Positions 45,701 to 62,141 of a DNA stretch of 64,000 nucleotides are shown here, piece after piece. The stretch is from positions 11,110 through 75,109 of the IMG/VR virus record IMGVR_UViG_3300045993_000757, one strand, 5' to 3'. The stretch's first letter is position 1; every line of letters begins with the position of its first letter. This DNA is from a virus. The notes under the pieces are model-generated. The model did no database searches. It was not told the DNA's origin and saw only the letters and a program-made list of their open reading frames with translations. Made by a program: the position numbers and the translations under genes.

Positions 45701-48700
45701 ACGTTCCGGCGCGAATCCGGAAGCCCAAGCCCGCCCCAAGCAATCCGCTGACCACACGGGACGCCATCATCCAGACGACATCCCAGGGCCCCGGCGTCGT
45801 TCCCACCCGCCAGCAGTCCACCACACCCCAGCTTCCTCCGTTGTTCAAGCTGGGTCAGACGACGCACGCGAAGAAGGGGATCCAGTTGTTCGTCGCCACG
45901 CTGACCAAGAGCTTGAGCGATGCGAACTTCTCCGTAGTCAACCGGATCGCCAAGAAGCACGACGGATACTACTCGGGGTACAACAAGGCCAACGCGATCC
46001 CAGGATTCCAGTTCGACGCCGCGGATCAACGAGACGATTTCGTCGCCGAGGTTGAGCGGGCACTCCGACCTCCCGACGAATCCACTCCGACCTACTCCCT
46101 GAAGGCGCGCGATCCGTTTGAGGTCAACGACATCACGCGCACCCGCGGGGCCATCATGGCTTCCATCGGAGTGCCGCACGTCGCGGATGCCATGACGATG
46201 ACCCCCGACGAGTTCGCCGCCGGGAAACATCCGACTGTCCTGGGGTTCTCTGGCAAGTCTCTATGGCAAGCCATCAACAGCGGGGATCCCACCCTTTCGG
46301 CGTTGCTCCGTTCGCCCGCCTATTCGCTCAAGGTCCGTCCGGTGCAGTCGGACCTGTTCGACCGGGAGACGACGCGGAGCATCGCCCAAGCCTACACCTC
46401 GGCGGGAACGTCGCTGCCGAACAACCGCCCCGCCCTGTTCTCGGTGATCGACAACGGGGACGGGTGGAAGGCGCAGAGTCGAAACATCGACTTCGGGGCC
46501 GGGAAGTCCTTGTGGATGGACGACGCCCTCAAGAGCCGGGGCGTGGAGAACCTTCGGTACGATCCATTCAACGAGGCCTCCGCCGTCAATGAGGCCACCG
46601 TCGATTCAGCTCTCCGCGCCCCGGCCGACACCTTGACCGTCGCCAACGTGCTCAACGTGGTCGCGCCGGAGGCTGCGTTGGATGAGACCATCCGTCAAAC
46701 CGCCCGCCTGCTGAAGCCGGACGGCAAGGCGTACTTCTGGGTCCACTTCGAGAACGGCAAGAAGTCCGGCGTTCCCCGCGGTCGCCCCGACTCCTGGCAA
46801 TGGCACCATAAGGCCGAGTGGTACGTCCCACACCTGAGCCGCTTCTACGGAAAGGTCGAGACCATCGGCCAGAACATGATCGTGGCCTCGCAGCCGATCC
46901 CCGTGGTGGGCGAATGGTCGCCGTCCGCGGAAGGGCCCACGTTCAGCCTCAAGCCGCGCGCCTACGACCTCACGCCGAACGGTGGGAATCCCATGGTGCC
47001 GCGCATCGGCTACCTCACCGGGAAGCACAGCGCCAAGATCCTCGCTCGCGCCCAGGCCCGCGGGGACATCGGGGCCCTGATTACGCCGACATCGTCGCAC
47101 TCATTGGACACGGCCCGGTCCTACCCGTTCTACGCCGTGGACAATGGCGTGTTCGGTAAGGCCGGGTTCAACGAGCCCAAGTTCAACGCCCTCCTGAACA
47201 AGATCCAACCGGGCGATCCCAAGGTCTTGTTCGTCGTGGCCCCCGATGTCCTGGCCCACCTTCCCAATGGCCAGGTGGTCGGGGATGCCGCGGCGACCAT
47301 CGAGCGGTTCAAGGATTGGGGCCCTCGGATCCGGGAGCGCGGTCTTCCCGTGGCTTTCGTGGCCCAGGACGGGCTGGAGGATCGGTTCAACGACATCCCA
47401 TGGGACGGTATGGACGTGCTGTTCATCGGCGGGTCCACGGGCTGGAAGCTGGGCGAGTTCGCCGATCCGGAGCGCCGGCGGCGGTGGGAGTATGTGATGG
47501 GCGAGGCGCACAACCGCGGCATCCCGATTCACATGGGGAGGGTGAACTCCAACGAGCGCCTGACGGGCCACGCCGTGGACATGGCTGCGTCCACCGCGGA
47601 CGGGACCCTCCTGGCGTTCGGGGAGGACATCAACTTGCCCAGGCTCGAATCATGGCTGGATCAGTTGAACCACGGGGGGCTGTCTTACGCGGCTCGGAAC
47701 ATGACGGAGTTGGGAAGATTGCCCACGAGGCGGGAGATTATCGACTTGGCCAGTGATCGGAATCTTGCCTATGAAACCCTCGGGGCATTTGAGCCCGCCC
47801 TGGACGAGATCAACGCCACGCGCAACGAACTTGGGCTGCCCCCAATCGCACCCCGCCAGTTCGATCCGGGCCAAGCTGAGTTCGGTTTCTCGCTGAAAAA
47901 GCCAGTCCGGATGTTCCGCAGCTACGCCGAGTTGGAAACGGGGGCTCTCCAGTTCGAGTCCTGGCGCGACTGGTACTCGGCCGACAAGGCGAACATAGAC
48001 TCTATGTTCGGTAAGGATGCCCCGCTGTTCGCACAGGTTCTCGCTGCCACGTCCATCCAGACTGAGGTTCCCGATAATGTCGGTCGAGCCTTGCGCGCCT
48101 ACATTGAGATGATTCAGGGAGCGCCATTCACTGGTCAGATCCCATCGGCTAGGGTCAATTTGGAGCGAATCCGGGATGGAGAGTCGATCCGTGGCCCCAA
48201 GATAGAACCTTTTGCTCGGGCCATCATGGGCGATGAAAGCGCGATCGCTGTTGACAGGCACGTCATCCGCGCGATCTTCGGCGAGGACGCGGTCGCTACT
48301 CCGGCACTCATAAGAAAGGCACAAGATGTCATTCGCAAGATTGCGGCGAAACACGGGTGGACTCCTCGGCAAACCCAGGCCGCAGTCTGGGCTTGGAAAA
48401 TCAATCTCAACGGGAAAACCCCCCAACGATACCTCGACTCCCTCACTCCCGATCGCTTCGCTAGCACAATCCGTGGATCAGGAGTTGAAGGACTCGTTCG
48501 ATCGCGCACGAATTTTGGACAGGGAACTCAAGCAGGCGTTGGGACCGGGGCGGCAGACACCGGATCCGGAGTTCAAACGGGAAATGAAACCCCCGCTTAC
48601 AGCCTAAAGACCCCGCCCGATCACCGGCCGCTCGCGGAGGACATCAACGCTTTCCGCACCGAGTTCCCCACGGCCCCGCCGATCGTCGTCAACCAGGACG

Positions 48701-51700
48701 ATGCCGCGCGCGGGGCCCGGTTCGAGAATGGCGAGATCGTGGTCGCTGAGACCATGATGCCCAGCAGCCGCACCGGTCGCCGGGCGGAACTCCTGGCGGC
48801 TCTCTCAGACGCCGGTCGGCTGAACATTCCCCAGGGATTCTGGGATCGAAGCTGGAAGGGTCTTGTCGCGGCTTCCCCCGTCCTCATCGAGGAGACACGC
48901 AAGTCCATTGGCGGGAACATCGACACCCAAGAAGGCCGCAATGCCATCCTGGCTGAGTTGGTGAAGCGGACATCAAAGTCCTCCGCCCCCGTGGGATTCG
49001 TGCGTTCGGCCCTGGCGTTCTTCCGTGGCCTCGACCAGACGAAGACCCCGGCCTACATCATCGCGGCCATGCAGCGGACGCTGGACCGGGTGACCGACCA
49101 GTTCACGCCACACCAGGCGGGGCCGCAGGGCGAGGCGGACTTCGGACCCACCGACACGCTCCACCAGTACATCGGCGGTCTCAACCGCGACGGATCACAG
49201 CGGGCGAGTGGCGTTCAGGAACAGGTCTTCGCCGACCAACACTTCGCCCTTTGGAACTCCTTCGAGCCTGAGCTTTCCCGCATGGAGGCGCGGCTCTCCG
49301 ATCTTCAGACGGGGCTCCTGGAGGACCACCAGTTCGAGAGTGTCCGCCAGCGGATGCAGCAGATCGCCGACACGGTCCTGGCAACGAACATTGCGAACCA
49401 CCGGCGCGCGGCCCTGAACATCGCCGCCGATGACTTCATCGACCAAGTCCAGGAGGTGAATCCTGACCTCCTCACCCGCGAGGACATCGAGAACCACAGC
49501 ATCTATCTCAACGAGGTGAAGGCCCGGCGAGCCATGTCGCTCATGCAGAACATCGAGCGGAACAAGGCGACTCGCGATTACCTGACGGACAACCTGCCCC
49601 AGTACCCGATTCAAACCCTGAACCGCCGCATCTCCCGGCAGCAGATCCGCCTGTCTGACATCGAGCAGAACCACCCCGAAATGTACGCTCGTGCCTCCGA
49701 GTTGAAGTCGCGGGTGGAAGGCGATCCCGCGGCCCGCGCCGCCGCCGATGCCATTTCCGACCCGGCCATCCAGGAGTGGGTCGAGGTCATCCATCAGATC
49801 CGCGAGAGCGGGACCCAGCCGCGCGCCCTGGCAGCCATGCCGGTGGCCATCCAGAATTCCGCCGCCGTCGCCGCCGGGGTGTTCCAGTACAAGGCCAGGG
49901 CCATGCGGCGGGAGCTGGGGGATCGCCTGGTTCGAACGACCGACACCGCCCTTCGCGCCCTCAACAAGCTCGTCGAGGAACGGCGCAATTCCCGGCAGAA
50001 GGAAGGTCAGATCGAAGTCGCCATGGTGGAGATGATCCAGGCGGCACGCGGGGACGCCGGGGCCAGCGGTGGCCTCTACACCCTGGAGGAAGCCAAGCGG
50101 ATGCGGGACATCGGGGACCGCGCCATCGCCCGGTTTGCTCGATTCCTGGGGGCTTCAGATCCCGGAACGCTGCCGGCTGAGCTTCGGGATGCCTTCATCG
50201 AGGACAACCTGATGTCCATCGGGATCGACCCGGCGACCCTGAGCGGGCCCAACTCGTTCGATCTCGACCGGATCGCCACCGATGCCGGGATCTCGCGGGA
50301 AGCCTTCCTTCAGATCATGGAACTGGCGCGCACCTCGCGCCCCTTCCAGAACATGGTGGTCGCCCTGGCCGACGAGGCCGACGAGCGCGCTGAGACCAGC
50401 ATCCTCAACGCCATCCAGCGGCTCCAACGGGTCCGCAACGAAGTCCTGAGCCGCCCCAGGGATCCGGTGGACACCACCGGCCTGACCCCCAAGGAGGCGC
50501 GCATCGCCATCGCCCGATCCGAACGTGCCATCATCCGGCAGGCGAACCAGGAGGCGCTGCTCTCCGCGGCCCCGTTCCTGCGCTCCCTGAAGCAGCAGAC
50601 CCTCGAACTCAAGCAGTCGAACCGGTCGATGGACACGCAGATCGAGCGGTTGGAACGCGAGCTTCAGACGATCCAGAACCTCTCCGACATGGCCAACGCC
50701 GTGGACGGAGCGGCCCACGAGCTGGCCCCCGACAACTTCGGGGTGGCCGAGATGGTCTACCAGACTTCGGACGGCGTCTTCATGGCGGAGTTCCTGACGG
50801 CGGAAGGAACCCAGCCCGGCGTCCGGGTCAGCCCTGGCGAGGAGTATTCGGCCGAGAAGATCATGGAGATCATCCTCTATCGGGACGCGGCCCTGCGCGC
50901 CATCGCTGCCAACGTGAACCCGCCGGAGATCACGCGCGGCTTGGAAGTCGCCGTGGACATGGTCCTCCCGCTGATCGACGCCAACTCGACCCCCGGATCC
51001 ATCGGAAAGACCCTGTCCCCGAACGGCCTGTCCGAACAGTGGACGAAGTATCCCATGGGCGTTCGAGCCGCGATGCCCCGCTTGATCCCCGGCATTTCCG
51101 GCCGGCGACTGGCGGAATCCATGGCCACCTACGCCCGTGTCGGAAGCAAGGTCACCGCCATCCTCAACAAGTACCACGCCCGCCGCGTCCAGTTGCTCAA
51201 GGCGGCGATGGACTCGATGAACCTGTCGCCCACGGACGAACTGGCGCGGTCCTCGTTCCGGCAGGTTTACAGCGAGGTGGCCCATCGCCTGCGCGAACAC
51301 GGATCCAACGTGGCTCCTGGCGATCAGACGTTCTCCGGAAATCACGGATCCATCGTGACCCCGGAGCTGATCACCCTCCTCCGGTACGACCGTGAAATCT
51401 TCAGGGCCGTCCAGGACATCGTGGAAAGCCTGCCCTACGGCGGCATCCGCGAGTCCATCCCCGGCATGGATGTCCGCCTCATTCGCCCCTCGGCCGAGAC
51501 CGGCGACGTGGGCCTGGCCCGGTCAGTGAACAAGGACTTCGAAGTCCCCCTGGCTCGCGCCTATTCCGCCGCAGTCACCCTGGCGACGAACCAGCAGAAG
51601 GTCACCGGACAGAACGTGATCCCCGACATCACCGCGTTCTGGGACATGAATCCGCACCACATCCTGTTCCACATCCTGGACGCTGGGCGGAACGACCTGG

Positions 51701-54594
51701 CCTTCGCTCGCAATCCGCAGCTTGTGGCCTTGGAGAAGCGATACGCGGCCGACATCCGCGCCGGCCGGGCCCAGGCCCCCAGGACGGTGCAGCAGGTCGT
51801 GAATGCCCTGACCGCCCTGGCCGGGGGAAGAATCCCGCCCGCGACCGTGGCCAAGCTGTTCAACGAGGAGCTGAACCGTTACGGCAAGGTCGCCCTGACC
51901 CGGAACTCCCTGGAATCCGAGGCCCCCAAGCGTTCCGAGGGGGTTCACATCGGCGAGGATGACACGAACGAGTTCTCGTCCCCCGCGGCGAAGCTCATCT
52001 ACCCCTCCGACTTCTACGAGTACGGGGCCAACGGGATCGACATCCGGCAAGCCGTGGAGCGCATGGCGGACCGGGCCCAGGTGGCCATGCTCGCGGCCAT
52101 GGAGGATGCCGCCAAGACCCTGAACTCCATCGTCAGCCGCCTCCAAGGTCCGATCCAAGGCATCACGTCCGAGGATCATGACATCGTCCGTTGGTCCACG
52201 CCCAACATGGACAAGTCCACCCTGTTCAAGCGGGTCGCCGCGGCCATCGAGGTGCTCAACGACCGGGCGCGGATGCTGCGCGCCGAGAAGGCCAAGCTGA
52301 TCGACACCGGGGTATCCCCTGGAACGCTCGTTCAGCTCATGCGGGCCAACTTCCCCATGATCCTGAGCTGGCCGCGCGCCATGCTGACGAACGTGGTGGG
52401 TGGGCCCATCGCCTCCGTCTACACCATGGCCGCGGTCTACGGCCGGCCGGCCGCGGTGCTGTTCGCCGCCCTGAATTCCATCGGAAGCATGGCCACGCTG
52501 GCATCCGAGTCGTTCCTGTGGACGGCGAAGAAGCTGGGATTCGATGTCACGGGGGGATCGAGCCCCAACTCCTTCCTTTCGAACCGCGCCGAGGCTCTGG
52601 ACTGGCTGGAGTCGGTCGGCCTGGGCGTCACCTCGTACTCCCATGCCGAGATCCAGGAGTTGCAGTCCTATATGCAGGGGCCGGGCCTGAAGAAGGCGTT
52701 CTTCCGCGGGGCCCTGAAGGTCGGGGCCGCAGTCGAGAATGTCCTGGGGCAACACGTTGGCGTCTCCGCCGGCGACCGTATCCTGAACCGGTTCGCCGCC
52801 CAGATCGTCGTTCCCATGACCCTTTGGCGGCTGAAGAAGTTGGCCCTGCGCTGGCAGCAGCGACTTGCCAAGATGGATGTGGTGGCCGGGCCCACGTCCC
52901 TCCGCGATACGCGGGGCAACTTCATGGCGGAGTACGCCTTCAGCGATGCCGACTCCCAGAACGCCGCTCGGATCCGCGAGCAGATCGAGGAGGCCGGGAT
53001 GAATCCCGAAGACTTCCTGGCCAAGCTGGCCAATGGGGAGATCGACATCCGCCGATTCTGGCGCACGGAAGCCGGGGCGAAGTTCGGGCAGATGATCCTA
53101 GGCGAGTTCAACGCCAGCAACCGCATCAACCGGCCGCATCCCAACGCCCTCCTAAGCCTCCTGGGATGGACCTCGTTCACCCTGTCACGCTCGCTGGACC
53201 TCATGCGCGCCAAGCCGAACATCGGCCGCTTCAAGCGCCTGGGGGAAGCCGCCATCGGGGCCATGGCCTTCTCCACCGCCTCTGTCCTGTCGGCCATGCT
53301 CCAGCAGGCCGCTCGGCAGGGATTCAACGAGTTGCAGACGACCATCGCCCGCACCATCGCCGATGCCCTGCGCGTCCCGCCCGACAAGGACGATGAGTGG
53401 TCCGTGTTCCACTGGATGCGGAACATCCTGGCGCGCGCCTTCGCCTCATTCGAGGTGAACGCCTCGCCCAAAGCCAACCCATGGGAAAAGTCCTGGTGGC
53501 AGCGCCCGTGGACCGAAATTGCGCTCGAGGTGGCCCGAGATATCCCGGCGGGTGTGGGCATCGATCGACTCGCCGAGGGCGGATCCCTGAAGACCCCATT
53601 CTCAGGCATGATGGTTCAGTCTATGGAAACCGTGGGCCTTGCGGTGAAGGCGATCTTCGAAGCCCTGGGCGGAGACACGCCCCAGGCCAAGACCAACGCC
53701 CTGCTCTCCGCCAAGAACGCCCTGGGGATGTTCGGCGAGCTGGGCCGGGCCATGGGCAATATGCTCATGCCCAACCGCCGGCAATCGGTCCACGACATCC
53801 GGAAGGCAGCCATCGACGCCGGCGTGAAGTTTACGCCCCCCGACACGAGCTTCGGCTTCCAGTTCATGCAGAACACCCCGACGCGCGGGCCCCTGCTGGA
53901 CGCCGCCCTTCAGGTTTCGCAGGCTCGAAGCGAAGCGGATCGATTGGCCGCATCGGATCGGCTCAAGGAAGTCAGCCGGGAGATTTACCAGGCCGCGTTC
54001 GACAAGGTGGTCGAGCGTGGCGGGTTTGCGAACGAGCACGACGCACGCAAGGCTGCGGATGAGGCAGGGAGGAAGGCGGTCCAGTCTGCCCTGTCCGCCA
54101 TGGAACCCGTCACTCGTGCTCTGGGTCGATCCGTGACGCCCACGGAGTTCGCGGCACTCAAAGCCACCGGGGTTCTGGATTCCACGGCGGTCCAGGAGGA
54201 GAGCGCGGCGGTGGCCGTCGCCGCCAGGATCCTGTCGAACACGAAGACCCCGGACGGCGGGCATTCGCTGGCCACGAACACCAAGGCGGTCAGCAGCCCC
54301 ATCTCCGGGGCGTACCTGGGCACTGGCGGAACGGTCAGCGGAGGAAGCCCCGTGGCCAGCGGGGGTGGATCTGCGTTCGGCGGCGGGGCCATGGGGGCTG
54401 GGGCGAGCGTCCTCGGTGGGTCGTCGAGCGCCCTTCGAGGAGGGCTCGGAAAGCTGGGTCGTTCGAAGTTCGGTCTCAGGCCGAAGAAGATGCGCCTCGG
54501 GAAGCCGGGTAAGAGCAAGGTGGTTCGCCTGGGCAAGTTAAAGGTGACTCGCATCAAGGTTCCCAAGCTCAAAAAAGTCGCGGTCAAGGGGTAG
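36796..54594 (+). CDS. Giant polyvalent (DarB-like) virion protein: ejection-type N-terminus, zincin-like domain, SF2 helicase, two methyltransferases, TIM-barrel domain, HhH glycosylase-like domain
   Basis: 5932 aa; REEAAH..EEYVA; DGTGTGKT/DESHN/LSATP/QAEGRGYR; YYPTP/LEPSAGHG/NPPF; DFGAG/YDPF/NVLNVV; DNGVF/APDV/VAQDG/FIGGST/HMGRVNS; GPKIEPF/AVDRH/QAAVW. Confidence 0.85.
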   Translation: MPKYPLTLPNGQSFDIDSPNELSQSQLAEAQGQLMAQFGQAQPDPTPVAEPSLSNNAFDPIGAVRDAIGQELPPPEFGAMDVPGAAVRSTMGQLGQGMFKIGLGAMGLTTGPLVDVLTGNTPFQQNPSWETLGETLNPAKSYARFKRGAMAQNINDLARSSVPVWERQNDPSIAQPTGFTKSAIDFTGGVASSVIMSLPAMVTGIPGLIGMSMATFDPAFEEAQSKGAGDTKAFAHAVLSTAFEAGSEYVGSAWAKTARMMETMPYLPPTVRKYLFQAERGPVEDAAKEAARSFWGTLVGTASRKDGIHLGTATMEGLEEVFSTVAQRMSAAMLYDPTQITNIGDLMMDAGMSFLGGAAAGVAFTPLERRVARQKVGEAMRSGVFEQYRTALEAAKKDGAYRPEDQKVVNEAVTGRRLMELGALWGNTDMVAKGKEQLAAATTPEMAAATEAEVKKAAEMFHAVQTPEGAATAHKLAVDQFGADSPQAKKMAELVNQANEHRLDIARAQAVQTSGPGMKSEEWAKVVTQEGLSPDRVELHASQGFRDNETGLPTENPKDSQGRPNQEQEGYVDPQTGKIHIYQGSILGDINAGRGSRRVRQREHFRQVLREEAAHTALQTPLGRSRLNAYVEHLKANDSKAYQAIVDTLARQGYHPDIIPEEYVAKLYRQQSWFQQKVDDFMLALHRWTGIGKLNHVRAGRLLIRSLVEHSRQGNLRGNAGAFQPANAAADVRQQESRLDMARIRALNTEEAKVIASGHAAILTQPQLEQAIRDLTTRLELMNRQGIGGMVKLETERVLKAAKDEFVARENVRRQAILNQATAPVQPPTPNTPQGGTAPFVPVIDQQPPTPPPNAPDQQQQQTGSQPEHPNGNEGGQAPEAGNSNSPGSPAESGAEAPNPEESKVASYVPPENPGHIAADLSTKVQQGDLTRDEGTALSIKFGVQGEFDQFMALIDKVAAREASGEAQAEREARKAKIDNIVSRLLVGDEVDGGILESIEPRAEDDHWFVVRHPGGTTSASNVPPIIGKMFDPAWVQSIESRKLTREKVLKAEELKKKIKGKEKPQDAREQAAAEARAKKEAFERAEAERKAKEKADQDAARNEFESAFQQAKALAPGDKVGKRVVQSNNTETTDIQFEGENTPEDYENVAVFIMDGNDVVKASTPPPAAGKTFKVGDRVQWMDGKITRTGVVREQTAIGVSVNDDDSGRNYLLASSDLTELSKPVSDQPQAPAIIEAWKKGKRELAQQLADRLPEPGDTWAFRTSDTGNLAGYGAGDSTFTRDLTVRGKPLWQWINEAQADTLPKPGSNAQENKPAAGITADNLHKQNLRMFTGILKPIIERVRGIFDRLERGKKVSQDDHSFLSRYRAFATEKVRSLNEGFGDVPAESIAQKYTDDFEGIALARDYTKAQLEVEKRHLTKFGQLFPTGSETGNIISGLLGRVMEAINRHDGVPIPRLASKIPKRPIRKPSTRERAPDLIDLLIDTVGKIDPKLIKEANPDFKPTGAARLLFSPKGTPADQAMHAVVGQMGVTADMSIDQFAEAITAAANGRKATRKGWAAEGAQNDADAKRALAFHAFLDKERPSGLSVSELKMGDSFTVDGDPFSVIGVEYGEDGGPFSVTLDGGKKWGTQVVDGKKPVTVDDGSFAGVNGPIEPETSKLPSEIADEIRRVVGFIQEVRNYLNSQLQWKDNHSRFVVEEYLKDNAQAIEAAQKTIQEFRDVAPTHNIDAELVIEELGGVPDITLPPEKPAGIPGFFDAIESDEDRIARERNEAEQRRAKADADKLRDLANKPLKGTAGDLGQGALFAEPGDQDLFAPPPADVQPKRKAMDAIQAKVDAQDATKRAKIEELKKRLKPNMGGEDITPFSLKELSPQTKNDLIELSGLYLSSDIVSFAEFSTKLIDDFGDSVRPWLQFAYESSRFSPGATYKGSMDPADWVEQLAKKYDSGATPDLESDRFRTTGQPGPDRGPTVQPENLGPAQPGDRPVAPGDSQADTGTPGGVSDRGDSTTDARPAGGERLPEPAASPVVERPASHPGTQRPGRSGGTGRARVSAAAQSDLGSPEAPVVAPDVATPPPDFGAYPSDNPVADQADANARSYPWLSADPGNIESTLPMLFPSQRKNVFLAERRFAETPVAATHASGTGLGDPKRGILFTDGTGTGKTYSGAGIVKRFLMQGKTRILIAVPNANIIEAWKSAMKDLEIPHFVLPDTSTAAKGVTLTTQANLRNNAELAKQDFDLVVIDESHNLLSNEAGEANAGLRSFRMVANHPDSVERKATNAIIGPAPVQADYAGGGDFAAALHQWDQKRIDNMAKISAEVKRINELNTKALFLSATPFAYHTSLIMGDGFLYSLPDDSQRTGYNQPKGFDRFLAENLGWRMRTGKLNKPSANVDTSVMEIQLHDLFAKRGAMHGVSLDVPQDYSREFVLVRPAAAQKLDDGFSFFRGGESYQQQYPILNKVFNELWDYNHVAQLLEALKMDSAIERIRQHVAMGRKVILLHSYLKAKIHAHPFRFETYPPEFLMAFNGADLKAEMDRFRNDHAEWANIVMPDSELSLEKIRREFGDSVVFNNGKEAPRSRVEAVIDFNRDGGGVNLLVGQLQATKEGVSLHDKSGKHQRVMMMVALPIRPTDAIQAEGRGYRIGVKTDAINEYIVLHTMMERFAFASKINERADTVETLALGSDSRNLRDRFRDGYLNAIDADPNDQQGKGSKEADRRAETMSDFDRAVSFYFARTKKNSRTKSAEGLDYYPTPEPLGLKMVEWADPSAGDALLEPSAGHGAIGQWFPNIGQHAYLEPSAELRSELGIKVKAGTVYSTTFEDYHITNKFDEIVMNPPFGRAGATAFAHLAKAFRHLVMGGRIVALVPDGANTNDKIVELLRAGNDPTGHYDGRVLRADISLPSSVFERAGTSVRTRLLIFDTPTYSDLHSGHRIGEGLENLFPPTFTTKIEANTIQELFDQIRDLDVPARIRKPKPAPSNPLTTRDAIIQTTSQGPGVVPTRQQSTTPQLPPLFKLGQTTHAKKGIQLFVATLTKSLSDANFSVVNRIAKKHDGYYSGYNKANAIPGFQFDAADQRDDFVAEVERALRPPDESTPTYSLKARDPFEVNDITRTRGAIMASIGVPHVADAMTMTPDEFAAGKHPTVLGFSGKSLWQAINSGDPTLSALLRSPAYSLKVRPVQSDLFDRETTRSIAQAYTSAGTSLPNNRPALFSVIDNGDGWKAQSRNIDFGAGKSLWMDDALKSRGVENLRYDPFNEASAVNEATVDSALRAPADTLTVANVLNVVAPEAALDETIRQTARLLKPDGKAYFWVHFENGKKSGVPRGRPDSWQWHHKAEWYVPHLSRFYGKVETIGQNMIVASQPIPVVGEWSPSAEGPTFSLKPRAYDLTPNGGNPMVPRIGYLTGKHSAKILARAQARGDIGALITPTSSHSLDTARSYPFYAVDNGVFGKAGFNEPKFNALLNKIQPGDPKVLFVVAPDVLAHLPNGQVVGDAAATIERFKDWGPRIRERGLPVAFVAQDGLEDRFNDIPWDGMDVLFIGGSTGWKLGEFADPERRRRWEYVMGEAHNRGIPIHMGRVNSNERLTGHAVDMAASTADGTLLAFGEDINLPRLESWLDQLNHGGLSYAARNMTELGRLPTRREIIDLASDRNLAYETLGAFEPALDEINATRNELGLPPIAPRQFDPGQAEFGFSLKKPVRMFRSYAELETGALQFESWRDWYSADKANIDSMFGKDAPLFAQVLAATSIQTEVPDNVGRALRAYIEMIQGAPFTGQIPSARVNLERIRDGESIRGPKIEPFARAIMGDESAIAVDRHVIRAIFGEDAVATPALIRKAQDVIRKIAAKHGWTPRQTQAAVWAWKINLNGKTPQRYLDSLTPDRFASTIRGSGVEGLVRSRTNFGQGTQAGVGTGAADTGSGVQTGNETPAYSLKTPPDHRPLAEDINAFRTEFPTAPPIVVNQDDAARGARFENGEIVVAETMMPSSRTGRRAELLAALSDAGRLNIPQGFWDRSWKGLVAASPVLIEETRKSIGGNIDTQEGRNAILAELVKRTSKSSAPVGFVRSALAFFRGLDQTKTPAYIIAAMQRTLDRVTDQFTPHQAGPQGEADFGPTDTLHQYIGGLNRDGSQRASGVQEQVFADQHFALWNSFEPELSRMEARLSDLQTGLLEDHQFESVRQRMQQIADTVLATNIANHRRAALNIAADDFIDQVQEVNPDLLTREDIENHSIYLNEVKARRAMSLMQNIERNKATRDYLTDNLPQYPIQTLNRRISRQQIRLSDIEQNHPEMYARASELKSRVEGDPAARAAADAISDPAIQEWVEVIHQIRESGTQPRALAAMPVAIQNSAAVAAGVFQYKARAMRRELGDRLVRTTDTALRALNKLVEERRNSRQKEGQIEVAMVEMIQAARGDAGASGGLYTLEEAKRMRDIGDRAIARFARFLGASDPGTLPAELRDAFIEDNLMSIGIDPATLSGPNSFDLDRIATDAGISREAFLQIMELARTSRPFQNMVVALADEADERAETSILNAIQRLQRVRNEVLSRPRDPVDTTGLTPKEARIAIARSERAIIRQANQEALLSAAPFLRSLKQQTLELKQSNRSMDTQIERLERELQTIQNLSDMANAVDGAAHELAPDNFGVAEMVYQTSDGVFMAEFLTAEGTQPGVRVSPGEEYSAEKIMEIILYRDAALRAIAANVNPPEITRGLEVAVDMVLPLIDANSTPGSIGKTLSPNGLSEQWTKYPMGVRAAMPRLIPGISGRRLAESMATYARVGSKVTAILNKYHARRVQLLKAAMDSMNLSPTDELARSSFRQVYSEVAHRLREHGSNVAPGDQTFSGNHGSIVTPELITLLRYDREIFRAVQDIVESLPYGGIRESIPGMDVRLIRPSAETGDVGLARSVNKDFEVPLARAYSAAVTLATNQQKVTGQNVIPDITAFWDMNPHHILFHILDAGRNDLAFARNPQLVALEKRYAADIRAGRAQAPRTVQQVVNALTALAGGRIPPATVAKLFNEELNRYGKVALTRNSLESEAPKRSEGVHIGEDDTNEFSSPAAKLIYPSDFYEYGANGIDIRQAVERMADRAQVAMLAAMEDAAKTLNSIVSRLQGPIQGITSEDHDIVRWSTPNMDKSTLFKRVAAAIEVLNDRARMLRAEKAKLIDTGVSPGTLVQLMRANFPMILSWPRAMLTNVVGGPIASVYTMAAVYGRPAAVLFAALNSIGSMATLASESFLWTAKKLGFDVTGGSSPNSFLSNRAEALDWLESVGLGVTSYSHAEIQELQSYMQGPGLKKAFFRGALKVGAAVENVLGQHVGVSAGDRILNRFAAQIVVPMTLWRLKKLALRWQQRLAKMDVVAGPTSLRDTRGNFMAEYAFSDADSQNAARIREQIEEAGMNPEDFLAKLANGEIDIRRFWRTEAGAKFGQMILGEFNASNRINRPHPNALLSLLGWTSFTLSRSLDLMRAKPNIGRFKRLGEAAIGAMAFSTASVLSAMLQQAARQGFNELQTTIARTIADALRVPPDKDDEWSVFHWMRNILARAFASFEVNASPKANPWEKSWWQRPWTEIALEVARDIPAGVGIDRLAEGGSLKTPFSGMMVQSMETVGLAVKAIFEALGGDTPQAKTNALLSAKNALGMFGELGRAMGNMLMPNRRQSVHDIRKAAIDAGVKFTPPDTSFGFQFMQNTPTRGPLLDAALQVSQARSEADRLAASDRLKEVSREIYQAAFDKVVERGGFANEHDARKAADEAGRKAVQSALSAMEPVTRALGRSVTPTEFAALKATGVLDSTAVQEESAAVAVAARILSNTKTPDGGHSLATNTKAVSSPISGAYLGTGGTVSGGSPVASGGGSAFGGGAMGAGASVLGGSSSALRGGLGKLGRSKFGLRPKKMRLGKPGKSKVVRLGKLKVTRIKVPKLKKVAVKG
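39356..39511 (+). CDS. Nested +1-frame gene: small basic phage protein (MPL...NIRTEMKAGKPQKQAIAIAL type)
   Basis: Manual translation MPLINSSSKQAVSQNIRTEMKAGKPQKQAIAIALAVQRRAEQKRRIRKKAR matches a pattern I recognise from small stand-alone phage genes; host frame here is a low-complexity linker. Confidence 0.75.
   Translation: MPLINSSSKQAVSQNIRTEMKAGKPQKQAIAIALAVQRRAEQKRRIRKKAR
42638..43132 (+). CDS. Nested +1-frame gene, 164-aa helical protein
   Basis: ATG after AAAAAAT; G/C third-position bias shifts to the +1 frame; amphipathic sequence; host frame is a P/G/R/D linker. Confidence 0.65.
   Translation: MTQVPLRIWNQIASEQQDNLDPIAVQLFSLKTSDQLNLVIDLWHQEIRKLTPEPLVASAIVAILPLMRAQRAVNAFLSQRPALSWNVRQAIPELNGLDEAVELGVLEYRLRRNQTLDLRKLLSSPQTWQLLRPILERTPATTPSPTKPTPTPDPTPGSPPIPAT
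48473..48607 (+). CDS. Possible nested +1-frame micro-gene (44 aa)
   Basis: GTG-DQELKDSFDRARILDRELKQALG...; GC3 bias in +1 frame; host frame is a Gly-rich linker. Confidence 0.4.
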   Translation: MDQELKDSFDRARILDRELKQALGPGRQTPDPEFKREMKPPLTA

Positions 54595-58207: not shown

Positions 58208-58671
58208 CGCGCACCCCCAAGCATCTTCAGTCCCTCAGGTGTGAGCCAGTTGGTGGGGATGTGGACCCAGCCCGCGTCGAAGTTGGTGGAGACGAGAACG
58301 GTCAGTGGGTGGGTATCGGACCACCTAACCCCGTTGGTCATCACCAACGAATGACCGGCAATGTAGTTCGTCAAGACGTTCAGGTTGGTGAGCGTGGTCC
58401 CGTTGGTGTAGGGACCTTGGTGAATCCAGTTTGTGGGCCAGTCATTGGTCAACCCATAGATCCAGTTTGTCTTGGATGGAAAGATCGGCATCTCGTCGCG
58501 GAAGGGCCACGCAGGCTGCGACGGCGCAGGCACCTCGCGGATCGTGGTGACGGTGTTGGTGACGTAGAGGATGCGCTCGGTCGGCTGTGGAATGGGCCTC
58601 CACAAGGCGATGTTGGCTACGACGAGCGCAAGGGCGCTCGCAACGTACAGTACGAGGGGGGTGTGGTTCAT
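58204..58671 (-). CDS. Membrane-anchored Thr-Asn-rich protein
   Basis: N-terminal TM LVLYVASALALVVANIALW; many TN/TNW motifs. Confidence 0.65.
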   Translation of the reverse strand: MNHTPLVLYVASALALVVANIALWRPIPQPTERILYVTNTVTTIREVPAPSQPAWPFRDEMPIFPSKTNWIYGLTNDWPTNWIHQGPYTNGTTLTNLNVLTNYIAGHSLVMTNGVRWSDTHPLTVLVSTNFDAGWVHIPTNWLTPEGLKMLGGAR

Positions 58672-59654
58672 AGAATCATTGGGTTGAATCCATCCGCCGC
58701 CACCTGCACCGGCTTCTTCAGCTCGTTTCGTACAAAGCTGATGCTCCCGTTCTTGGCGCTGATCGCCGCCAGATAATCCGCCTCGATCACGCTGTCCGCC
58801 ACCACCACTCCGCCGTTCATCGCGGTCTGGTTGGGCGTCTTGTCCCACCACTCCACGCCGCGCGCCCCAGTGAGACGGCAATTCACGATGTACACCTTCC
58901 GAATGCAGACCGCCGTTCCAATCATCGCCACCGCGGCCCATGACCCCTGGAACTCGCATTCGCGAGCCACGGCTAGGCATGGCCCAGTGTCGCAATAAAA
59001 ACCAAATTTCCCGCCTATACCCTTGCATCCCGTGAATCGAGTTATGTGGGTAGCCGCGAATGCGTGCTGGTTATCGCTCCCAAGATTCACATCGCAAGAC
59101 CGTACCATGCTATCAAAACCCGCCGGATCATCCACAGTCGCTCCAAGGTAAATTCCAGAAACAAAAGAGTCAGGAGATACTGCGTTTACCGTACACGAGT
59201 CCACGAGGCTTCCAGACGTTTTCCCCTCGCTCGACAGCGCAAAAACTTCCGTGCCCGACCCTCCCCAGTTCCACGATCCTCGAAGCCCAGTGATACTCAG
59301 TCCACTGGCCGTGAACTTTCCGAAGAACCGAAGGCCACCTCCAAACCAACCGGGCGGCGGGGTACAGTCAAAGGTGCCTCCGGAAACGGTGGTATCGGCC
59401 TCGGCCCAAAGCAGATTCAAATCGCGCGATGGGCGAACGACTCCACCCGCGATCAGTGTCGGGCTGGACGAGAACTTCAACCTGGATCCGGTAAGGTCCA
59501 GGGAGACCCCCTTGGCCAAACTCTTGTAATTTGGAAATCCCCAGTTTCCCGCGGTCACAAAAGTGCCATCCCTAGCCACTATGGAATCCCCAGGTCTTCG
59601 TGCGTACTTAAGAGCGTCGTCAAATTCATTGGTATCTGTGACTGTGATTTTCAT
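58668..59654 (-). CDS. Pectin-lyase-like right-handed beta-helix protein
   Basis: Start MKITVTDTNEFDDAL..PGDSI...GTF; repeated short beta strands with Cys/Asn ladder. Confidence 0.6.
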   Translation of the reverse strand: MKITVTDTNEFDDALKYARRPGDSIVARDGTFVTAGNWGFPNYKSLAKGVSLDLTGSRLKFSSSPTLIAGGVVRPSRDLNLLWAEADTTVSGGTFDCTPPPGWFGGGLRFFGKFTASGLSITGLRGSWNWGGSGTEVFALSSEGKTSGSLVDSCTVNAVSPDSFVSGIYLGATVDDPAGFDSMVRSCDVNLGSDNQHAFAATHITRFTGCKGIGGKFGFYCDTGPCLAVARECEFQGSWAAVAMIGTAVCIRKVYIVNCRLTGARGVEWWDKTPNQTAMNGGVVVADSVIEADYLAAISAKNGSISFVRNELKKPVQVAADGFNPMIL

Positions 59655-59658
59655 ATTT

Positions 59659-60488
59659 GCCTGCAATGCCGTGCCATTACCCGACATGACTACCAGTCCT
59701 GCCGTACCATTCCCTGCCCACCTAGGCCACCACCCTCCCACTCCTGCCGCGCCATGCCTTGCCTGGACTGGCCTGTCACGCCTGTCCGAGCCGCGACATT
59801 CCTGCCGCGCCAATCGGGCCGAACCTTCCTCCCCACCATCCCTACCAGTCCTATCCTGCCGTGCCTGGACATCCGAGCCTGTCCGACCTTGCCACTCCAC
59901 TCCTGCCGTGCCTTGACTCGCCTTCCCCAACGCACCGCGGCTTCCCACCTATCCACGCCATGCCTCTCCTGCCGTGCTATGCCCGTCCCCGCCATACCCT
60001 GACACCCGCCCACGTCGCGACGTTCCTGCCGTGCCTTATCCCGCCCGGTCAGGCCACGCCCGACCAGGCCGCGCCGCCCTCGCCTGCCGCGCCATGCCTC
60101 ACCTCGCCACACCTACCCTCCGCGACCTCCTGACCTGGCGAAGCTCGCCCAGACCACCACTCCCGCCATGCCGAGACTCGCCAGGCCCCGCCTTGACCTG
60201 CCGTGTCGCGCCCGTCCAACCGTGCCACTCCTGCCGTGCCCAGCCTCACGGGGCCATCCTTGCCCTACCGCGACCTCCTGGCCGGTTCTCGCCATCCGAT
60301 CCTGCCGTGCCGATCCTGCCGTGCCATGCCCGACCTCGACGTGCCCAGCGGGACCACGCCAACCGATCCTACCGTGCCATTCCCAGACCCTACCTCCCAC
60401 CTCCCCAGCCATCCGATCCTGCCGTGCCACCCTGGCCCCGCCTATCCCTTCCCGTCCCGTCCACGCCTGCTGCGCCGTGCCATTACCG
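59659..60488 (-). ncRNA. Non-coding array of GGY-NN pentamer tracts with GGCACGGCAGGA anchors; candidate guide-RNA array
   Basis: ~15 clear (T)CCTGCCGYGCC-type anchors on + strand, mostly 45-66 nt apart, separated by RCC-NN 5-nt periodic tracts with variable NN; fills the space between two co-oriented genes. Confidence 0.75.
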
Positions 60489-60962
60489 TCATCCGCCGGT
60501 CAATTCGCTTGTCCGCTTCACAGCGTCAAGCGTCTTCCAAAGTTCAACCAACTCCAGGACGTGTCCGTATCGCTTTCGGACAGCATCCAACTCGTTCATC
60601 GCATCATCGATGTAAGTCTTCCGATGCGTCGGGTTGGCCAGAACGGCCTCGATGGTCCTGTAACCGTTTCCGCTTACACGATCCGTTGAAAGGCTCACAA
60701 ATCGCCGCGTGGACTGTTCCGTAACGGGTTGGTCTGCAACCAACACGCGCACGCTGACGATCAGCCTTCTTGCTTCCTCAAGCCGCCATTTTTCCCCGGC
60801 CTCGCTGTCGCTCCAGGTGAACAAATGATGAATTTTGCAGGCCGGATCCCTGGCGTAATCGAGCACTCGCTTGGGAGTAAGAAGGCCGTCCCCGCCTTCC
60901 CGGAGCTGCAACTCCAGGACTTCGGAGACGGCCTGTTCCCGCGTCACAACAACCGCGCTCAT
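60489..60962 (-). CDS. Hypothetical protein paired with RAMP-like gene
   Basis: LTPKRVLDYARDP...H..FTWSD.EAGEKWRL.EARRLI; 5 nt downstream of RAMP-like gene, abuts the array. Confidence 0.75.
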   Translation of the reverse strand: MSAVVVTREQAVSEVLELQLREGGDGLLTPKRVLDYARDPACKIHHLFTWSDSEAGEKWRLEEARRLIVSVRVLVADQPVTEQSTRRFVSLSTDRVSGNGYRTIEAVLANPTHRKTYIDDAMNELDAVRKRYGHVLELVELWKTLDAVKRTSELTGG

Positions 60963-60967
60963 AAGCG

Positions 60968-61603
60968 TTAGTCGTTCACGACATCGAACGTCCCCCAGCC
61001 GATTCCGGCCGAGGCTTTCGAGTTGGGACGGCCCTCGCCGATCCCGTTTTGGGTGCCGGCGCGAACCAGGAGGTTAGTCACGTCTGAAAGCGTGAAGGCA
61101 TCACCGTCGAACTTCACGGTCACCACCGCTTCCCAACCCGGATCCCAGACCGGGCGGGAACGGATATCGGCAACGCCGCTCGCATTGCGGACCGGGGAGT
61201 CAACGCGCTTCGGTTCGCCCTTGGTGATGCGAACCAGGGGGGTTCCGTCTTCCACGTCAAAGCCGTCCGCTTTAACGAAAACGGTCATTTTTGCCATGGT
61301 CATCGTAAAGCCTGCGGTTCGGCAGGAGTCGATCAGCGCGCACCGGAATGCCGGAGCGGGGATCCCGTGCCATCCGTCAGCCGTGGTGTGTTTGGCCCCT
61401 TCGTACAGGGAGTCAAAATCCTTGGCCTCACGCTTCTTGCCTTTCTTGTTCTGACTGCCGGCCTCCTGGGTCTCGATCATCAGTTGCTTGGCCTTGCCAC
61501 TGAATTTGTTCTGACAATACGGGGCGTTTCCCCGGATCCTGAACTGGGCCGTGATCTCGTTCAACGGCCTGACGACTACTTCTTGCTTGGTTGCTTTTGC
61601 CAT
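60968..61603 (-). CDS. Stand-alone Cas7/RAMP-like RRM protein
   Basis: N-terminal strand FRIRGNAPY, IPAPAFRCAL (cf. IPGSSLKGAL), thumb region ending RPVW..W, C-terminal Gly-rich loop GIGEGRP...GIGWGTFDV. Confidence 0.75.
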   Translation of the reverse strand: MAKATKQEVVVRPLNEITAQFRIRGNAPYCQNKFSGKAKQLMIETQEAGSQNKKGKKREAKDFDSLYEGAKHTTADGWHGIPAPAFRCALIDSCRTAGFTMTMAKMTVFVKADGFDVEDGTPLVRITKGEPKRVDSPVRNASGVADIRSRPVWDPGWEAVVTVKFDGDAFTLSDVTNLLVRAGTQNGIGEGRPNSKASAGIGWGTFDVVND

Positions 61604-61671
61604 ACTTACTGGTGGTTTCTTTGTTTCTGCGTACCGCGCGTCGGTGGGTTATCCCGTAATGGGGCCCTGTC

Positions 61672-61821
61672 CTAGGCAGCGGAAATGGGATGGTAGGGTC
61701 GGTTGCATCGACACCTATTCAATCTGACGATGCAAAGCCTAGCGGTTCCGCGAATCTTGAACTTGGCCGTGATGATGTTCTCCGGCTTCGGATTCGCGCT
61801 GACTGGTTTTTTGGATTTCAT
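61672..61821 (-). pseudogene. 49-aa ORF carrying a copy of the RAMP-like N-terminus
   Basis: IITAKFKIRGTARL vs EITAQFRIRGNAPY; DNA also similar. Confidence 0.5.
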
Positions 61822-62009
61822 TGCTTCTCGTGTTCGAGTCGGTACATGACCACGGCGAACGCCCCGGCCGTCGCGAACACCAGATCGGTGGCCTTGACCT
61901 GCTCCTTGTTCATGTCCCCCTTGAATGCTTCGAGGGTGCATGCGAGTCGGATGGCTTCGTTCTCCAGCTTGGTTCGGTCCTTTTCCTCGATGATCTGTTG
62001 AAGCGTCAT
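61818..62009 (-). CDS. Small hypothetical protein
   Basis: 63 aa, ATGA overlap, good codon bias. Confidence 0.6.
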   Translation of the reverse strand: MTLQQIIEEKDRTKLENEAIRLACTLEAFKGDMNKEQVKATDLVFATAGAFAVVMYRLEHEKQ

Positions 62010-62141
62010 TCAGGCTTTCAGGTTGGGACTCCGCCGTGCGTCTATCAGGGCGTGCCAGTGGTCCCCACGCTGCTCACGGTGGCGGATCACCTTTATTTGC
62101 CTATAGGGCCACGGAAGCCGATGGGCGGGCGCGGTGGTCAT
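62010..62141 (-). CDS. 43-aa hypothetical protein
   Basis: MTTAPAHRLPWPY...; fills the gap with coupled start and stop. Confidence 0.4.
   Translation of the reverse strand: MTTAPAHRLPWPYRQIKVIRHREQRGDHWHALIDARRSPNLKA

What the first reader, a model, noticed from the sequence alone, without database searches (positions are those of the whole stretch)
59659..60488. Array grammar: constant triplet plus variable dinucleotide, in units set by a 12-nt anchor
Seen on + strand: anchors like TCCTGCCGTGCC at about 59697, 59742, 59800, 59854, 59901, 59967, 60024, 60082, 60196, 60229, 60300, 60314, 60367, 60417, 60465, with degenerate ones near 59659, 60128, 60161, 60276. Example unit from 60024: tcct gccgt gcctt atccc gcccg gtcag gccac gcccg accag gccgc gccgc, i.e. 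ten RCC-NN pentamers. On the transcribed strand this reads (NN-GGY)n then GGCACGGCAGGA. The period is 5, not 3, and NN differs between units, so it is neither coding nor a simple satellite. Inference: the information sits in the NN positions and the anchor is a processing or loading handle.
Basis: partly seen in the sequence, partly recalled or inferred. Interest (0 to 1): 0.9.

Follow-up and report, generated by a model that had tools for sequence, protein, structure and literature searches.

The report
VIPR guide-RNA array in a phage

Summary
Window 59659-60488 is non-coding and 48.6% C on the + strand. It has a strong period of about 5 and no period 3. The 12-mer TCCTGCCGTGCC occurs 16 times at up to 2 mismatches, plus a 17th copy at 3. 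Read on the minus strand, the strand of the flanking genes, it is (GGH-NN)n. The two G positions are nearly fixed and the NN positions carry near-maximal entropy.

Directly upstream on the same strand lie a 211-aa RAMP-fold protein and a 157-aa winged-helix-like protein. The first matches Csm3/Cas7 structures at Z 11-12, and its family profile hits the solved SUSP1 Vipr protein at E 7e-11. This gene pair plus a G-rich pentamer array recurs in about 60 of 92 viral and metagenomic loci.

This matches the published VIPR system: Vipr, Vap and vrRNAs of GGY/NN pentamers that read DNA by a 1-nt-skip code. I read the locus as a new, divergent member. It has no roughly 40-nt tail. Guide boundaries are marked by the 12-mer, which contains a 4-nt unit (GGCA), and this fits the preprint's "staggered arrays". 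The third triplet base is often A.

Target searches gave two exact, in-frame hits, but no more than chance predicts. Expression could not be tested. Confidence 0.9; interest moderate to low.

The parts
60968..61603 (-). vipr gene: 211-aa RAMP-fold protein (phrog_4652)
   Evidence: AF2 model has pLDDT 88.5. Foldseek prob 1.0 to Csm3/Cmr/Cas7-11. VIA-align Z 11-12 over about 150 residues to Csm3 and type VII Cas7. The family profile hits PDB 36pp_D 'SUSP1 Vipr protein' at E 6.9e-11, and the G-loop aligns as GIGEGRP against GVGDWRP.
60489..60962 (-). vap-like accessory gene: 157 aa (phrog_15946), with an N-terminal winged-helix-like domain and a C-terminal helical hairpin
   Evidence: AF2 pLDDT 87.3. 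Only weak winged-helix matches: forkhead, Z-alpha, MecI, MukE; Z 5-6.5. Co-occurs with vipr in 63 or more loci. No Pfam or PADLOC family.
59659..60488 (-). vrRNA array: about 16-17 units of (GGH-NN) pentamers, starting right after the vap stop and ending 4 nt before the next gene's ATG
60417..60428 (-). Example of the 12-nt boundary anchor GGCAC-GGCA-GGA (minus strand). Other copies at 59697, 59742, 59800, 59854, 59901, 59967, 60024, 60082, 60161, 60196, 60215, 60229, 60300, 60314, 60367 (+ strand starts), and a degenerate one at 60465.
   Evidence: The logo shows conservation limited to about (A/C)AT-GGCACGGCAGGA. Anchors at 60300/60314 and at 60215/60229 are tandem, with no guide between them.
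60168..60217 (-). Most regular guide: 10 pentamers, NN = CG GC AC AG AA GG CT GA TC AT
   Evidence: Its 1-nt-skip pattern has one exact hit, in frame, in a DUF927 helicase motif. About one hit is expected by chance.
60031..60075 (-). Second regular guide: 9 pentamers, NN = GC CT CG GT CT CG GG AA AC (the last unit belongs to the anchor)
   Evidence: One exact hit in a tape-measure-like ORF of an unrelated viral contig, which is within chance.
58668..59654 (-). Downstream gene (328 aa, starts MKITVTD). Marks the array's end and is not conserved with the module.

Best explanation
This is the guide-RNA (vrRNA) array of a phage-encoded VIPR system. The operon vipr (60968-61603), vap (60489-60962) and array (59659-60488) is read on the minus strand.

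By analogy with the characterised SUSP1 system, the array transcript is cut or bounded into roughly 45-70-nt vrRNAs. One Vipr protomer binds each pentamer, hides the GGH triplet and presents the NN pair. The filament then reads double-stranded DNA as NN-x-NN-x (one skipped base, usually the codon wobble position). This silences genes of competing phages or satellites, with help from the DNA-binding Vap.

Shown here: homology and fold of Vipr, the pentamer grammar, NN hypervariability, and conservation of the gene-plus-array module across many phages.

Inferred from the literature: RNP formation, the 1-nt-skip code and silencing.

My own inference: the 12-mer GGCAC-GGCA-GGA marks vrRNA boundaries through a 4-nt unit that shifts the register by one base. 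This fits the 'staggered, 1-nt overlapping' arrays named in the preprint.
For: - Grammar and period.
- The Vipr family profile hits the SUSP1 Vipr structure at E 6.9e-11. The thumb Arg (SUSP1 R138, window R150) and the G-loop Arg (SUSP1 R179, window R192) are both conserved.
- RAMP fold at Z 11-12 over the full length.
- A winged-helix-like accessory protein lies next to vipr. The preprint describes WH-like Vaps.
- G-rich pentamer arrays sit on the coding strand next to these two genes in about 60 of 92 independent viral or metagenome loci. Pooled GGC-to-GGC spacing is 5 nt (1546 cases) against 4 nt (296).
- A relative with 55% identical Vipr and 33% identical Vap keeps the exact 12-mer but shares no guide content.
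- The record is a 75-kb virus.
- The two long regular guides do not reach 80% NN match on the phage's own genome: 15/20 and 14/18.
- Published mechanism.
Against: - There is no conserved roughly 40-nt 3' tail or pseudoknot of the kind found in the characterised type II vrRNAs.
- The array is irregular. It has 41 four-nt units, and 23% of triplets end in A, which the SUSP1 Y pocket would exclude. Only three runs of 7 or more clean pentamers were called strictly.
- The G-loop Trp that stacks on G2 in SUSP1 is Gly here.
- A single-sequence search did not reach SUSP1 Vipr. Only the family profile did.
- No target was found above chance.
- There are no expression data.
Confidence: 0.9

Rival explanations
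1. It is a VIPR-derived array that is partly decayed, or that serves as a decoy or sponge, so that few units are working guides.
For: Many irregular 4-nt units and non-GG triplets such as GTC, GAC and GCT. Two places have tandem anchors with no guide between them (60300/60314 and 60215/60229). Arrays of relatives are far more regular. No targets were found above chance.
Against: The anchors are well kept: ten of 16 are exact or have one mismatch. The array fills the space between two genes exactly. Identical sequence occurs in several metagenomes. The published vrRNA consensus also varies between types.
Confidence: 0.07
2. It is a G-rich non-coding element unrelated to RNA guidance. Candidates are an R-loop or G-quadruplex replication origin, a sponge for a GGA-binding protein such as CsrA, or a binding-site array (pac or centromere) for the 157-aa protein.
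For: 48% G on the transcribed strand, many GGA and GGG runs, and a neighbouring winged-helix-like protein.
Against: None of these predicts a strict pentamer register with free NN positions. None predicts co-inheritance with a RAMP protein homologous to Vipr. No Rfam family matched.
Confidence: 0.02
3. It is protein-coding: a collagen-like Gly-X-Y repeat or another low-complexity protein.
For: The same 12-mer encodes G-T-A-G in collagen-like repeats of unrelated viral contigs, where copies lie multiples of 9 nt apart (L003, L004). One minus-strand frame has a single stop across the array.
Against: No period-3 signal. Anchors fall in all three frames, and unit lengths are not multiples of 3. There are stops in every frame.
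Confidence: 0.01

Closest known systems
VIPR systems (Viral Interference Programmable Repeat): Vipr + Vap + vrRNA. bioRxiv 10.64898/2026.04.26.720920 (PMC13142463), 10.64898/2026.04.26.720927, 10.64898/2026.10.15.759431
   Same: It is phage-encoded. It has a small RAMP protein homologous to SUSP1 Vipr and an adjacent small DNA-binding-like accessory gene. The intergenic arrays on the same strand consist of pentamers with a constant GG-pyrimidine-like triplet and hypervariable NN. Each guide has about 7-13 repeats.
   Different: There is no roughly 40-nt tail or pseudoknot, only a 12-nt anchor containing a 4-nt unit. The triplet is GGH, with A common at the third position. Vipr is very divergent from SUSP1 Vipr: only the profile match over the C-terminal third is detectable, and W178 is Gly. 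The locus has 16-17 units against four vrRNAs in SUSP1. I could not assign the type (I-VII) because the authors' figures and data files were not readable here.
'Staggered vrRNA arrays' within VIPR (fig. S18 legend of PMC13142463)
   Same: Guides abut without spacers or tails. In this locus and in cleaner relatives (L020, L031, L045, L055) each boundary is a 4-nt GGCA unit. Successive guides are therefore offset by one base, which is what '1 nt overlapping positions' would produce.
   Different: Only the legend text was available, so the identity of the two architectures is my inference. The 12-nt extended anchor is specific to this clade.
Class 1 CRISPR backbone (Cas7/Csm3 filament on crRNA)
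   Same: Same RAMP fold (Z 11-12). One protomer binds per fixed number of guide nucleotides, and bases are periodically flipped out.
   Different: The step is 5 nt with three bases hidden, not 6 nt with one hidden. There are no CRISPR repeats of 23 nt or more, no spacers taken from foreign DNA, and no cas1/cas2 or other cas genes in the 75-kb genome region examined.
TRAP (trp RNA-binding attenuation protein) and its (G/U)AG-NN(N) sites
   Same: A constant triplet plus a 2-3-nt spacer, read one subunit per repeat.
   Different: TRAP spacers carry no information. TRAP is a ring with a different fold. I considered it before the Vipr homology was found, and it serves here only as an analogy.

Membership tests
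VIPR system | Vipr protein: a small (about 20 kDa) single-RRM RAMP with a G-loop and thumb, homologous to characterised Vipr | tested here: met
   211 aa. The profile of 41 homologues hits SUSP1 Vipr (36pp_D) at E 6.9e-11 over the thumb-to-G-loop region. The AF2 model aligns to Csm3/Cas7 RAMPs at Z 11-12.
VIPR system | RNA-contact residues named for SUSP1 Vipr (R138 thumb; D177, W178, R179 in the G-loop) | tested here: inconclusive
   In the HMMER alignment R138 and R179 align to conserved Arg (window R150 and R192). D177 aligns to Glu and W178 to Gly. H17 and K33 lie outside the aligned stretch.
VIPR system | vrRNA tract: tandem pentamers with a conserved GGY and hypervariable NN, 9-16 per guide | tested here: met
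   Phase entropies are 0.46/0.84/1.51/1.91/1.99 bits. Units between anchors hold about 5-15 repeats. Deviations: GGH rather than GGY, and interspersed 4-nt units. Relatives show clean (GGC-NN) runs of 9-13.
VIPR system | Array lies in the intergenic DNA flanking vipr, on the same strand | tested here: met
   Window: vipr, vap, array. Relatives carry arrays downstream of, between or upstream of the two genes, always G-rich on the coding strand.
VIPR system | Accessory vap gene predicted to act on DNA | tested here: inconclusive
   The 157-aa neighbour is conserved with vipr. Its model has a winged-helix-like N-terminal domain, but matches are weak at Z 5-6.5. No sequence comparison with the published Vap1-6 was possible.
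VIPR system | vrRNAs are expressed, discrete, and co-purify with Vipr | not testable with these tools
   No RNA run is listed for this DNA. This needs small-RNA sequencing or a pull-down.
VIPR system | Guides match natural targets by the 1-nt-skip rule (at least 80% NN match), mostly in competing mobile elements, with no self-targets | tested here: inconclusive
   No self hit of 80% or more for the two long guides. There were two exact hits, both in frame, but their number is what chance predicts. With up to 2 mismatches, 5 hits against 4 control hits in 401 genomes.
VIPR type II (SUSP1 / P. fulva clade) | Invariant roughly 40-nt 3' tail forming a pseudoknot after each repeat tract | tested here: not met
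   Conservation around unit boundaries is limited to about 15 nt. I therefore do not file it as type II.
CRISPR-Cas | Direct repeats of about 23-55 nt separated by unique spacers, plus cas adaptation and effector genes | tested here: not met
   The only repeat is a 12-mer. The 'spacers' are themselves pentamer tracts. No cas family appeared among the neighbours searched.

The most novel reading that the evidence does not exclude
This environmental clade covers about 60 loci: pond, wetland, soil and freshwater phages, plus AT-rich gut relatives with a period-5 A-rich tract. It may be a VIPR architecture that is not yet characterised. Its arrays lack tails. Guide ends would be set only by a one-base register break (GGCA, extended here to a 12-mer). 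The Vipr G-loop lacks the G2-stacking Trp and tolerates A at the third triplet position. If so, filament length and guide boundaries would be defined differently from the SUSP1 tail-capped model.
Probability: 0.25. Interest if true: 0.5.

Novelty: new member of a known kind. Interest (0 to 1): 0.35.

Why it matters
VIPR is a newly reported way of reading DNA with RNA. It has been proposed as older than CRISPR and is useful as a very small programmable silencer.

This locus adds a divergent, environmentally widespread member. It has a compact array of 16-17 units, a short boundary motif in place of a structured tail, and a relaxed triplet (GGH). That is useful material for working out how guide ends are defined and how strict the GGY rule is.

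It is also a practical warning for annotation. Gene callers place spurious ORFs on both strands of such arrays (for example 59690-60112 and 60113-60430 on the minus strand, and 59046-60002 and 59974-60615 on the plus strand).

Tried and rejected
- **Rfam:** nothing at gathering score in the window, only chance-level rows in 59300-60800, and nothing in the AT-rich relative L078.
- **Tandem Repeats Finder:** sees only fragments.
- **Ideas dropped once Vipr homology appeared:** CsrA-type sponge, TRAP-like ring, R-loop or G4 origin, Chi-like array, terminase pac site, collagen-like coding. TerL lies 50 kb away.
- **'phages' collection:** no similar DNA.
- **First protein-pattern scan with the single 157-aa protein:** no relatives found. 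The alignment-based scans worked.
- **Pfam, PADLOC and PDB sequence search on the 157-aa protein:** nothing usable.
- **All-against-all guide search:** 197 guides from all arrays against 1.2 Mb (own genome plus related loci). The best-hit distribution equals that of shuffled guides.
- **Guide 60168-60217:** no exact hit in IMG/VR. It had one exact hit in 596 Gb of genomes, where about one is expected. The hit lies in frame in the conserved DUF927 motif W-R-A-T-x-N-G-L-E-x-I, in a 45% GC Oleiphilaceae contig that is an unlikely host for a 61% GC pond phage. No other window guide hits that contig. No close relatives of that helicase occur in viral contigs.
- **Guide 60031-60075:** one exact hit in a tape-measure-like ORF of an unrelated 47% GC viral contig, where about 2-3 are expected.
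- **Promoter and terminator scan of 59400-62100:** nothing above shuffles.
- **Sequencing runs:** no RNA holder is listed. DNA contigs from pond and wetland runs are identical, so they show no array variation.

Full report
**The observation**

The region 59659-60488 is 830 nt long and 48.6% C on the + strand. The 12-mer TCCTGCCGTGCC, allowing up to 2 mismatches, occurs 16 times between 59697 and 60428. Across the whole window there are 30 matches against 10.7 +/- 3.3 in shuffles. A seventeenth copy at 60465 has 3 mismatches.

Autocorrelation peaks at lag 5 (z = 9.8) and at 9-10, 14, 19, 24 and so on. Lags 3 and 6 are depleted. The Fourier maximum is at 4.75 nt, with no power at 3.0.

All three minus-strand frames contain stops. 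The anchors fall in different frames, and unit lengths are not multiples of three. Identical contigs occur in several pond and wetland metagenome runs, so it is not an assembly artefact.

**Anatomy**

The window is part of a 75,109-bp virus record with 61% GC, a large terminase gene and a 5,932-aa ORF. The array lies between two minus-strand genes. It starts directly after the stop of a 157-aa gene (60489-60962) and ends 4 nt before the ATG of a 328-aa gene (58668-59654).

On the minus strand each unit reads GGCACGGCAGGA followed by a G-rich tract. A dynamic-programming segmentation gives 141 five-nt units, 41 four-nt units and 7 single bases. The leading triplets are GGC (72), GGA (36), GGT (25) and GTC (15). 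Phase entropies are 0.46, 0.84, 1.51, 1.91 and 1.99 bits, and all 16 NN dinucleotides are used. The anchor itself parses as GGCAC-GGCA-GGA, which is a pentamer, then a four-nt unit, then the first triplet of the next tract. Conservation extends only about 3 nt upstream of it.

**Comparative evidence**

An exact-pattern scan for two anchors 30-60 nt apart found two viral contigs, L001 and L002. They carry a roughly 1-kb array with the same 12-mer next to a 33%-identical homologue of the 157-aa protein.

Alignment-based scans then gave 12 viral and 80 metagenomic loci. In about 60 of them a G-rich period-5 tract lies on the coding strand directly downstream of the gene. In some it lies upstream, or between this gene and a second conserved gene. 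That second gene is the homologue of the window's 211-aa ORF (60968-61603). It is present in 63 loci by BLASTP and in more by PSI-BLAST.

Pooled over the arrays, GGC-to-GGC spacing is 5 nt in 1546 cases, 4 nt in 296 and 10 nt in 393. Cleaner relatives (L020, L031, L045, L055) show runs of 9-13 GGC-NN pentamers punctuated by a single GGCA tetramer.

The closest relative with the same anchor has 55% identical Vipr. Its array shares only anchor-centred 14-mers with the window's array. So the anchor is conserved while the guide content differs.

**Identification**

I first considered a CsrA-type sponge, a TRAP-like ring binder, an R-loop or G-quadruplex origin and a packaging site.

The 157-aa protein folds confidently (pLDDT 87). 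Its N-terminal domain resembles a winged helix only weakly, and it ends in a C-terminal helical hairpin.

A profile of 41 homologues of the 211-aa protein hits PDB 36pp_D, 'SUSP1 Vipr protein', at E 6.9e-11. The aligned stretch runs from the thumb Arg to the glycine-rich loop, reading GIGEGRP here and GVGDWRP in SUSP1. Its AF2 model (pLDDT 88.5) matches Csm3, Cmr, Cas7-11 and type VII Cas7 with Foldseek probability 1.0 and VIA-align Z 11-12 over about 150 residues.

**What is known**

Three 2026 preprints describe VIPR systems. Vipr is a minimal RAMP. vrRNAs consist of 9-16 YNNGG repeats. One protomer binds per repeat and hides the GGY. The NN bases pair with DNA while skipping every third base, usually the codon wobble position. 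Natural targets are satellites and competing phages, and a Vap protein enhances the effect. There are seven types, which include winged-helix-like Vaps, ribozyme-interspersed arrays and 'staggered' arrays whose vrRNAs overlap by 1 nt. The window's locus fits this description feature by feature.

**Differences**

- There is no roughly 40-nt conserved tail, so I do not file it as type II.
- The boundary is a 12-mer containing a 4-nt unit. I read this as the register offset expected of staggered arrays. Only the figure legend was available, so this is an inference.
- The third triplet base is A in 23% of units, which the SUSP1 pyrimidine pocket would exclude. The residue that stacks on G2 (W178) is Gly in this family.
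- The array is more irregular than those of its relatives. Two anchor pairs are tandem with nothing between them, so some units may be inactive.

**Targets**

I converted regular guides to NN-x patterns, following the preprint's method.

Against the phage's own genome plus all related loci (1.2 Mb), best hits for 197 guides match the shuffled controls. The two long window guides reach only 15/20 and 14/18, so there is no self-target at 80%.

Guide 60168-60217 has 20 specified bases. It has no exact hit in IMG/VR and one in 596 Gb of genomes, where about one is expected by chance. That hit lies in frame, with the skip at the wobble position. It falls on the peptide RATSNGLESI, inside the strongly conserved W-R-A-T-x-N-G-L-E-x-I motif of a DUF927 primase-helicase, a protein typical of mobile elements. 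However, the contig has 45% GC and no other guide hits it. With up to 2 mismatches, 401 genomes of that order give 5 hits against 4 for the reversed control.

Guide 60031-60075 has 18 specified bases. It has one exact, in-frame hit in a tape-measure-like ORF of an unrelated 47% GC viral contig, where 2-3 hits are expected.

These two hits are leads and not findings.

**Verdict**

The locus is a new, divergent member of a known kind. Its boundary architecture and relaxed triplet deserve an experiment. Expression, processing and targets remain untested here.

Noticed in passing
L078:5350-6390 (also L072, L073, L079, L090): In AT-rich human-gut phage contigs of about 75-78 kb, the vap and vipr homologues are separated by about 1 kb of A-rich non-coding DNA. 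It has period-5 autocorrelation (lags 5, 10, 15) and pentamers that look like ACA-NN or AYA-NN, interrupted by repeated roughly 60-nt segments. It may be an AT-rich vrRNA consensus. There was no Rfam match and no hammerhead.
   Followed up: partly
L003:7200-8100 and L004:10400-11400: The same 12-mer (GGCACGGCAGGA on the other strand) recurs at spacings that are multiples of 9 nt. This fits collagen-like G-T-A-G coding repeats and is unrelated to the array. An anchor-only search therefore gives false positives.
   Followed up: partly
L015/L016:5371-7090: A 1.7-kb pentamer array with at least 34 anchor-like sites lies in a 158-kb viral contig. It sits next to a vipr homologue and a longer (399-aa ORF) protein that matches Vap only over residues 26-75.
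   Followed up: no
window 36796-54594 (+): A single 5,932-aa ORF with high third-position GC. Earlier notes of this scan describe helicase, methylase and other domains in it. I did not examine it.
   Followed up: no
window 59046-60724 (+) and 59690-60430 (-): Because the array has few stop codons, mechanical ORF lists show ORFs of 105-318 aa on both strands across it. One minus-strand frame has a single stop over about 800 nt. These ORFs are artefacts of composition.
   Followed up: yes
L098:549-2429 (-): A 626-aa DUF927 primase-helicase in an Oleiphilaceae contig carries the only exact 1-nt-skip match to guide 60168-60217. The matched peptide lies in the family's most conserved motif (WRATxNGLExI in 103 of 120 homologues).
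   Followed up: partly
related loci L007, L022, L036, L045, L058, L061, L067: Some relatives carry two or three separate arrays: upstream of vipr, between vipr and vap, and downstream of vap. Gene order can also be vap, array, vipr. The module is therefore rearranged freely while the strand is kept.
   Followed up: partly
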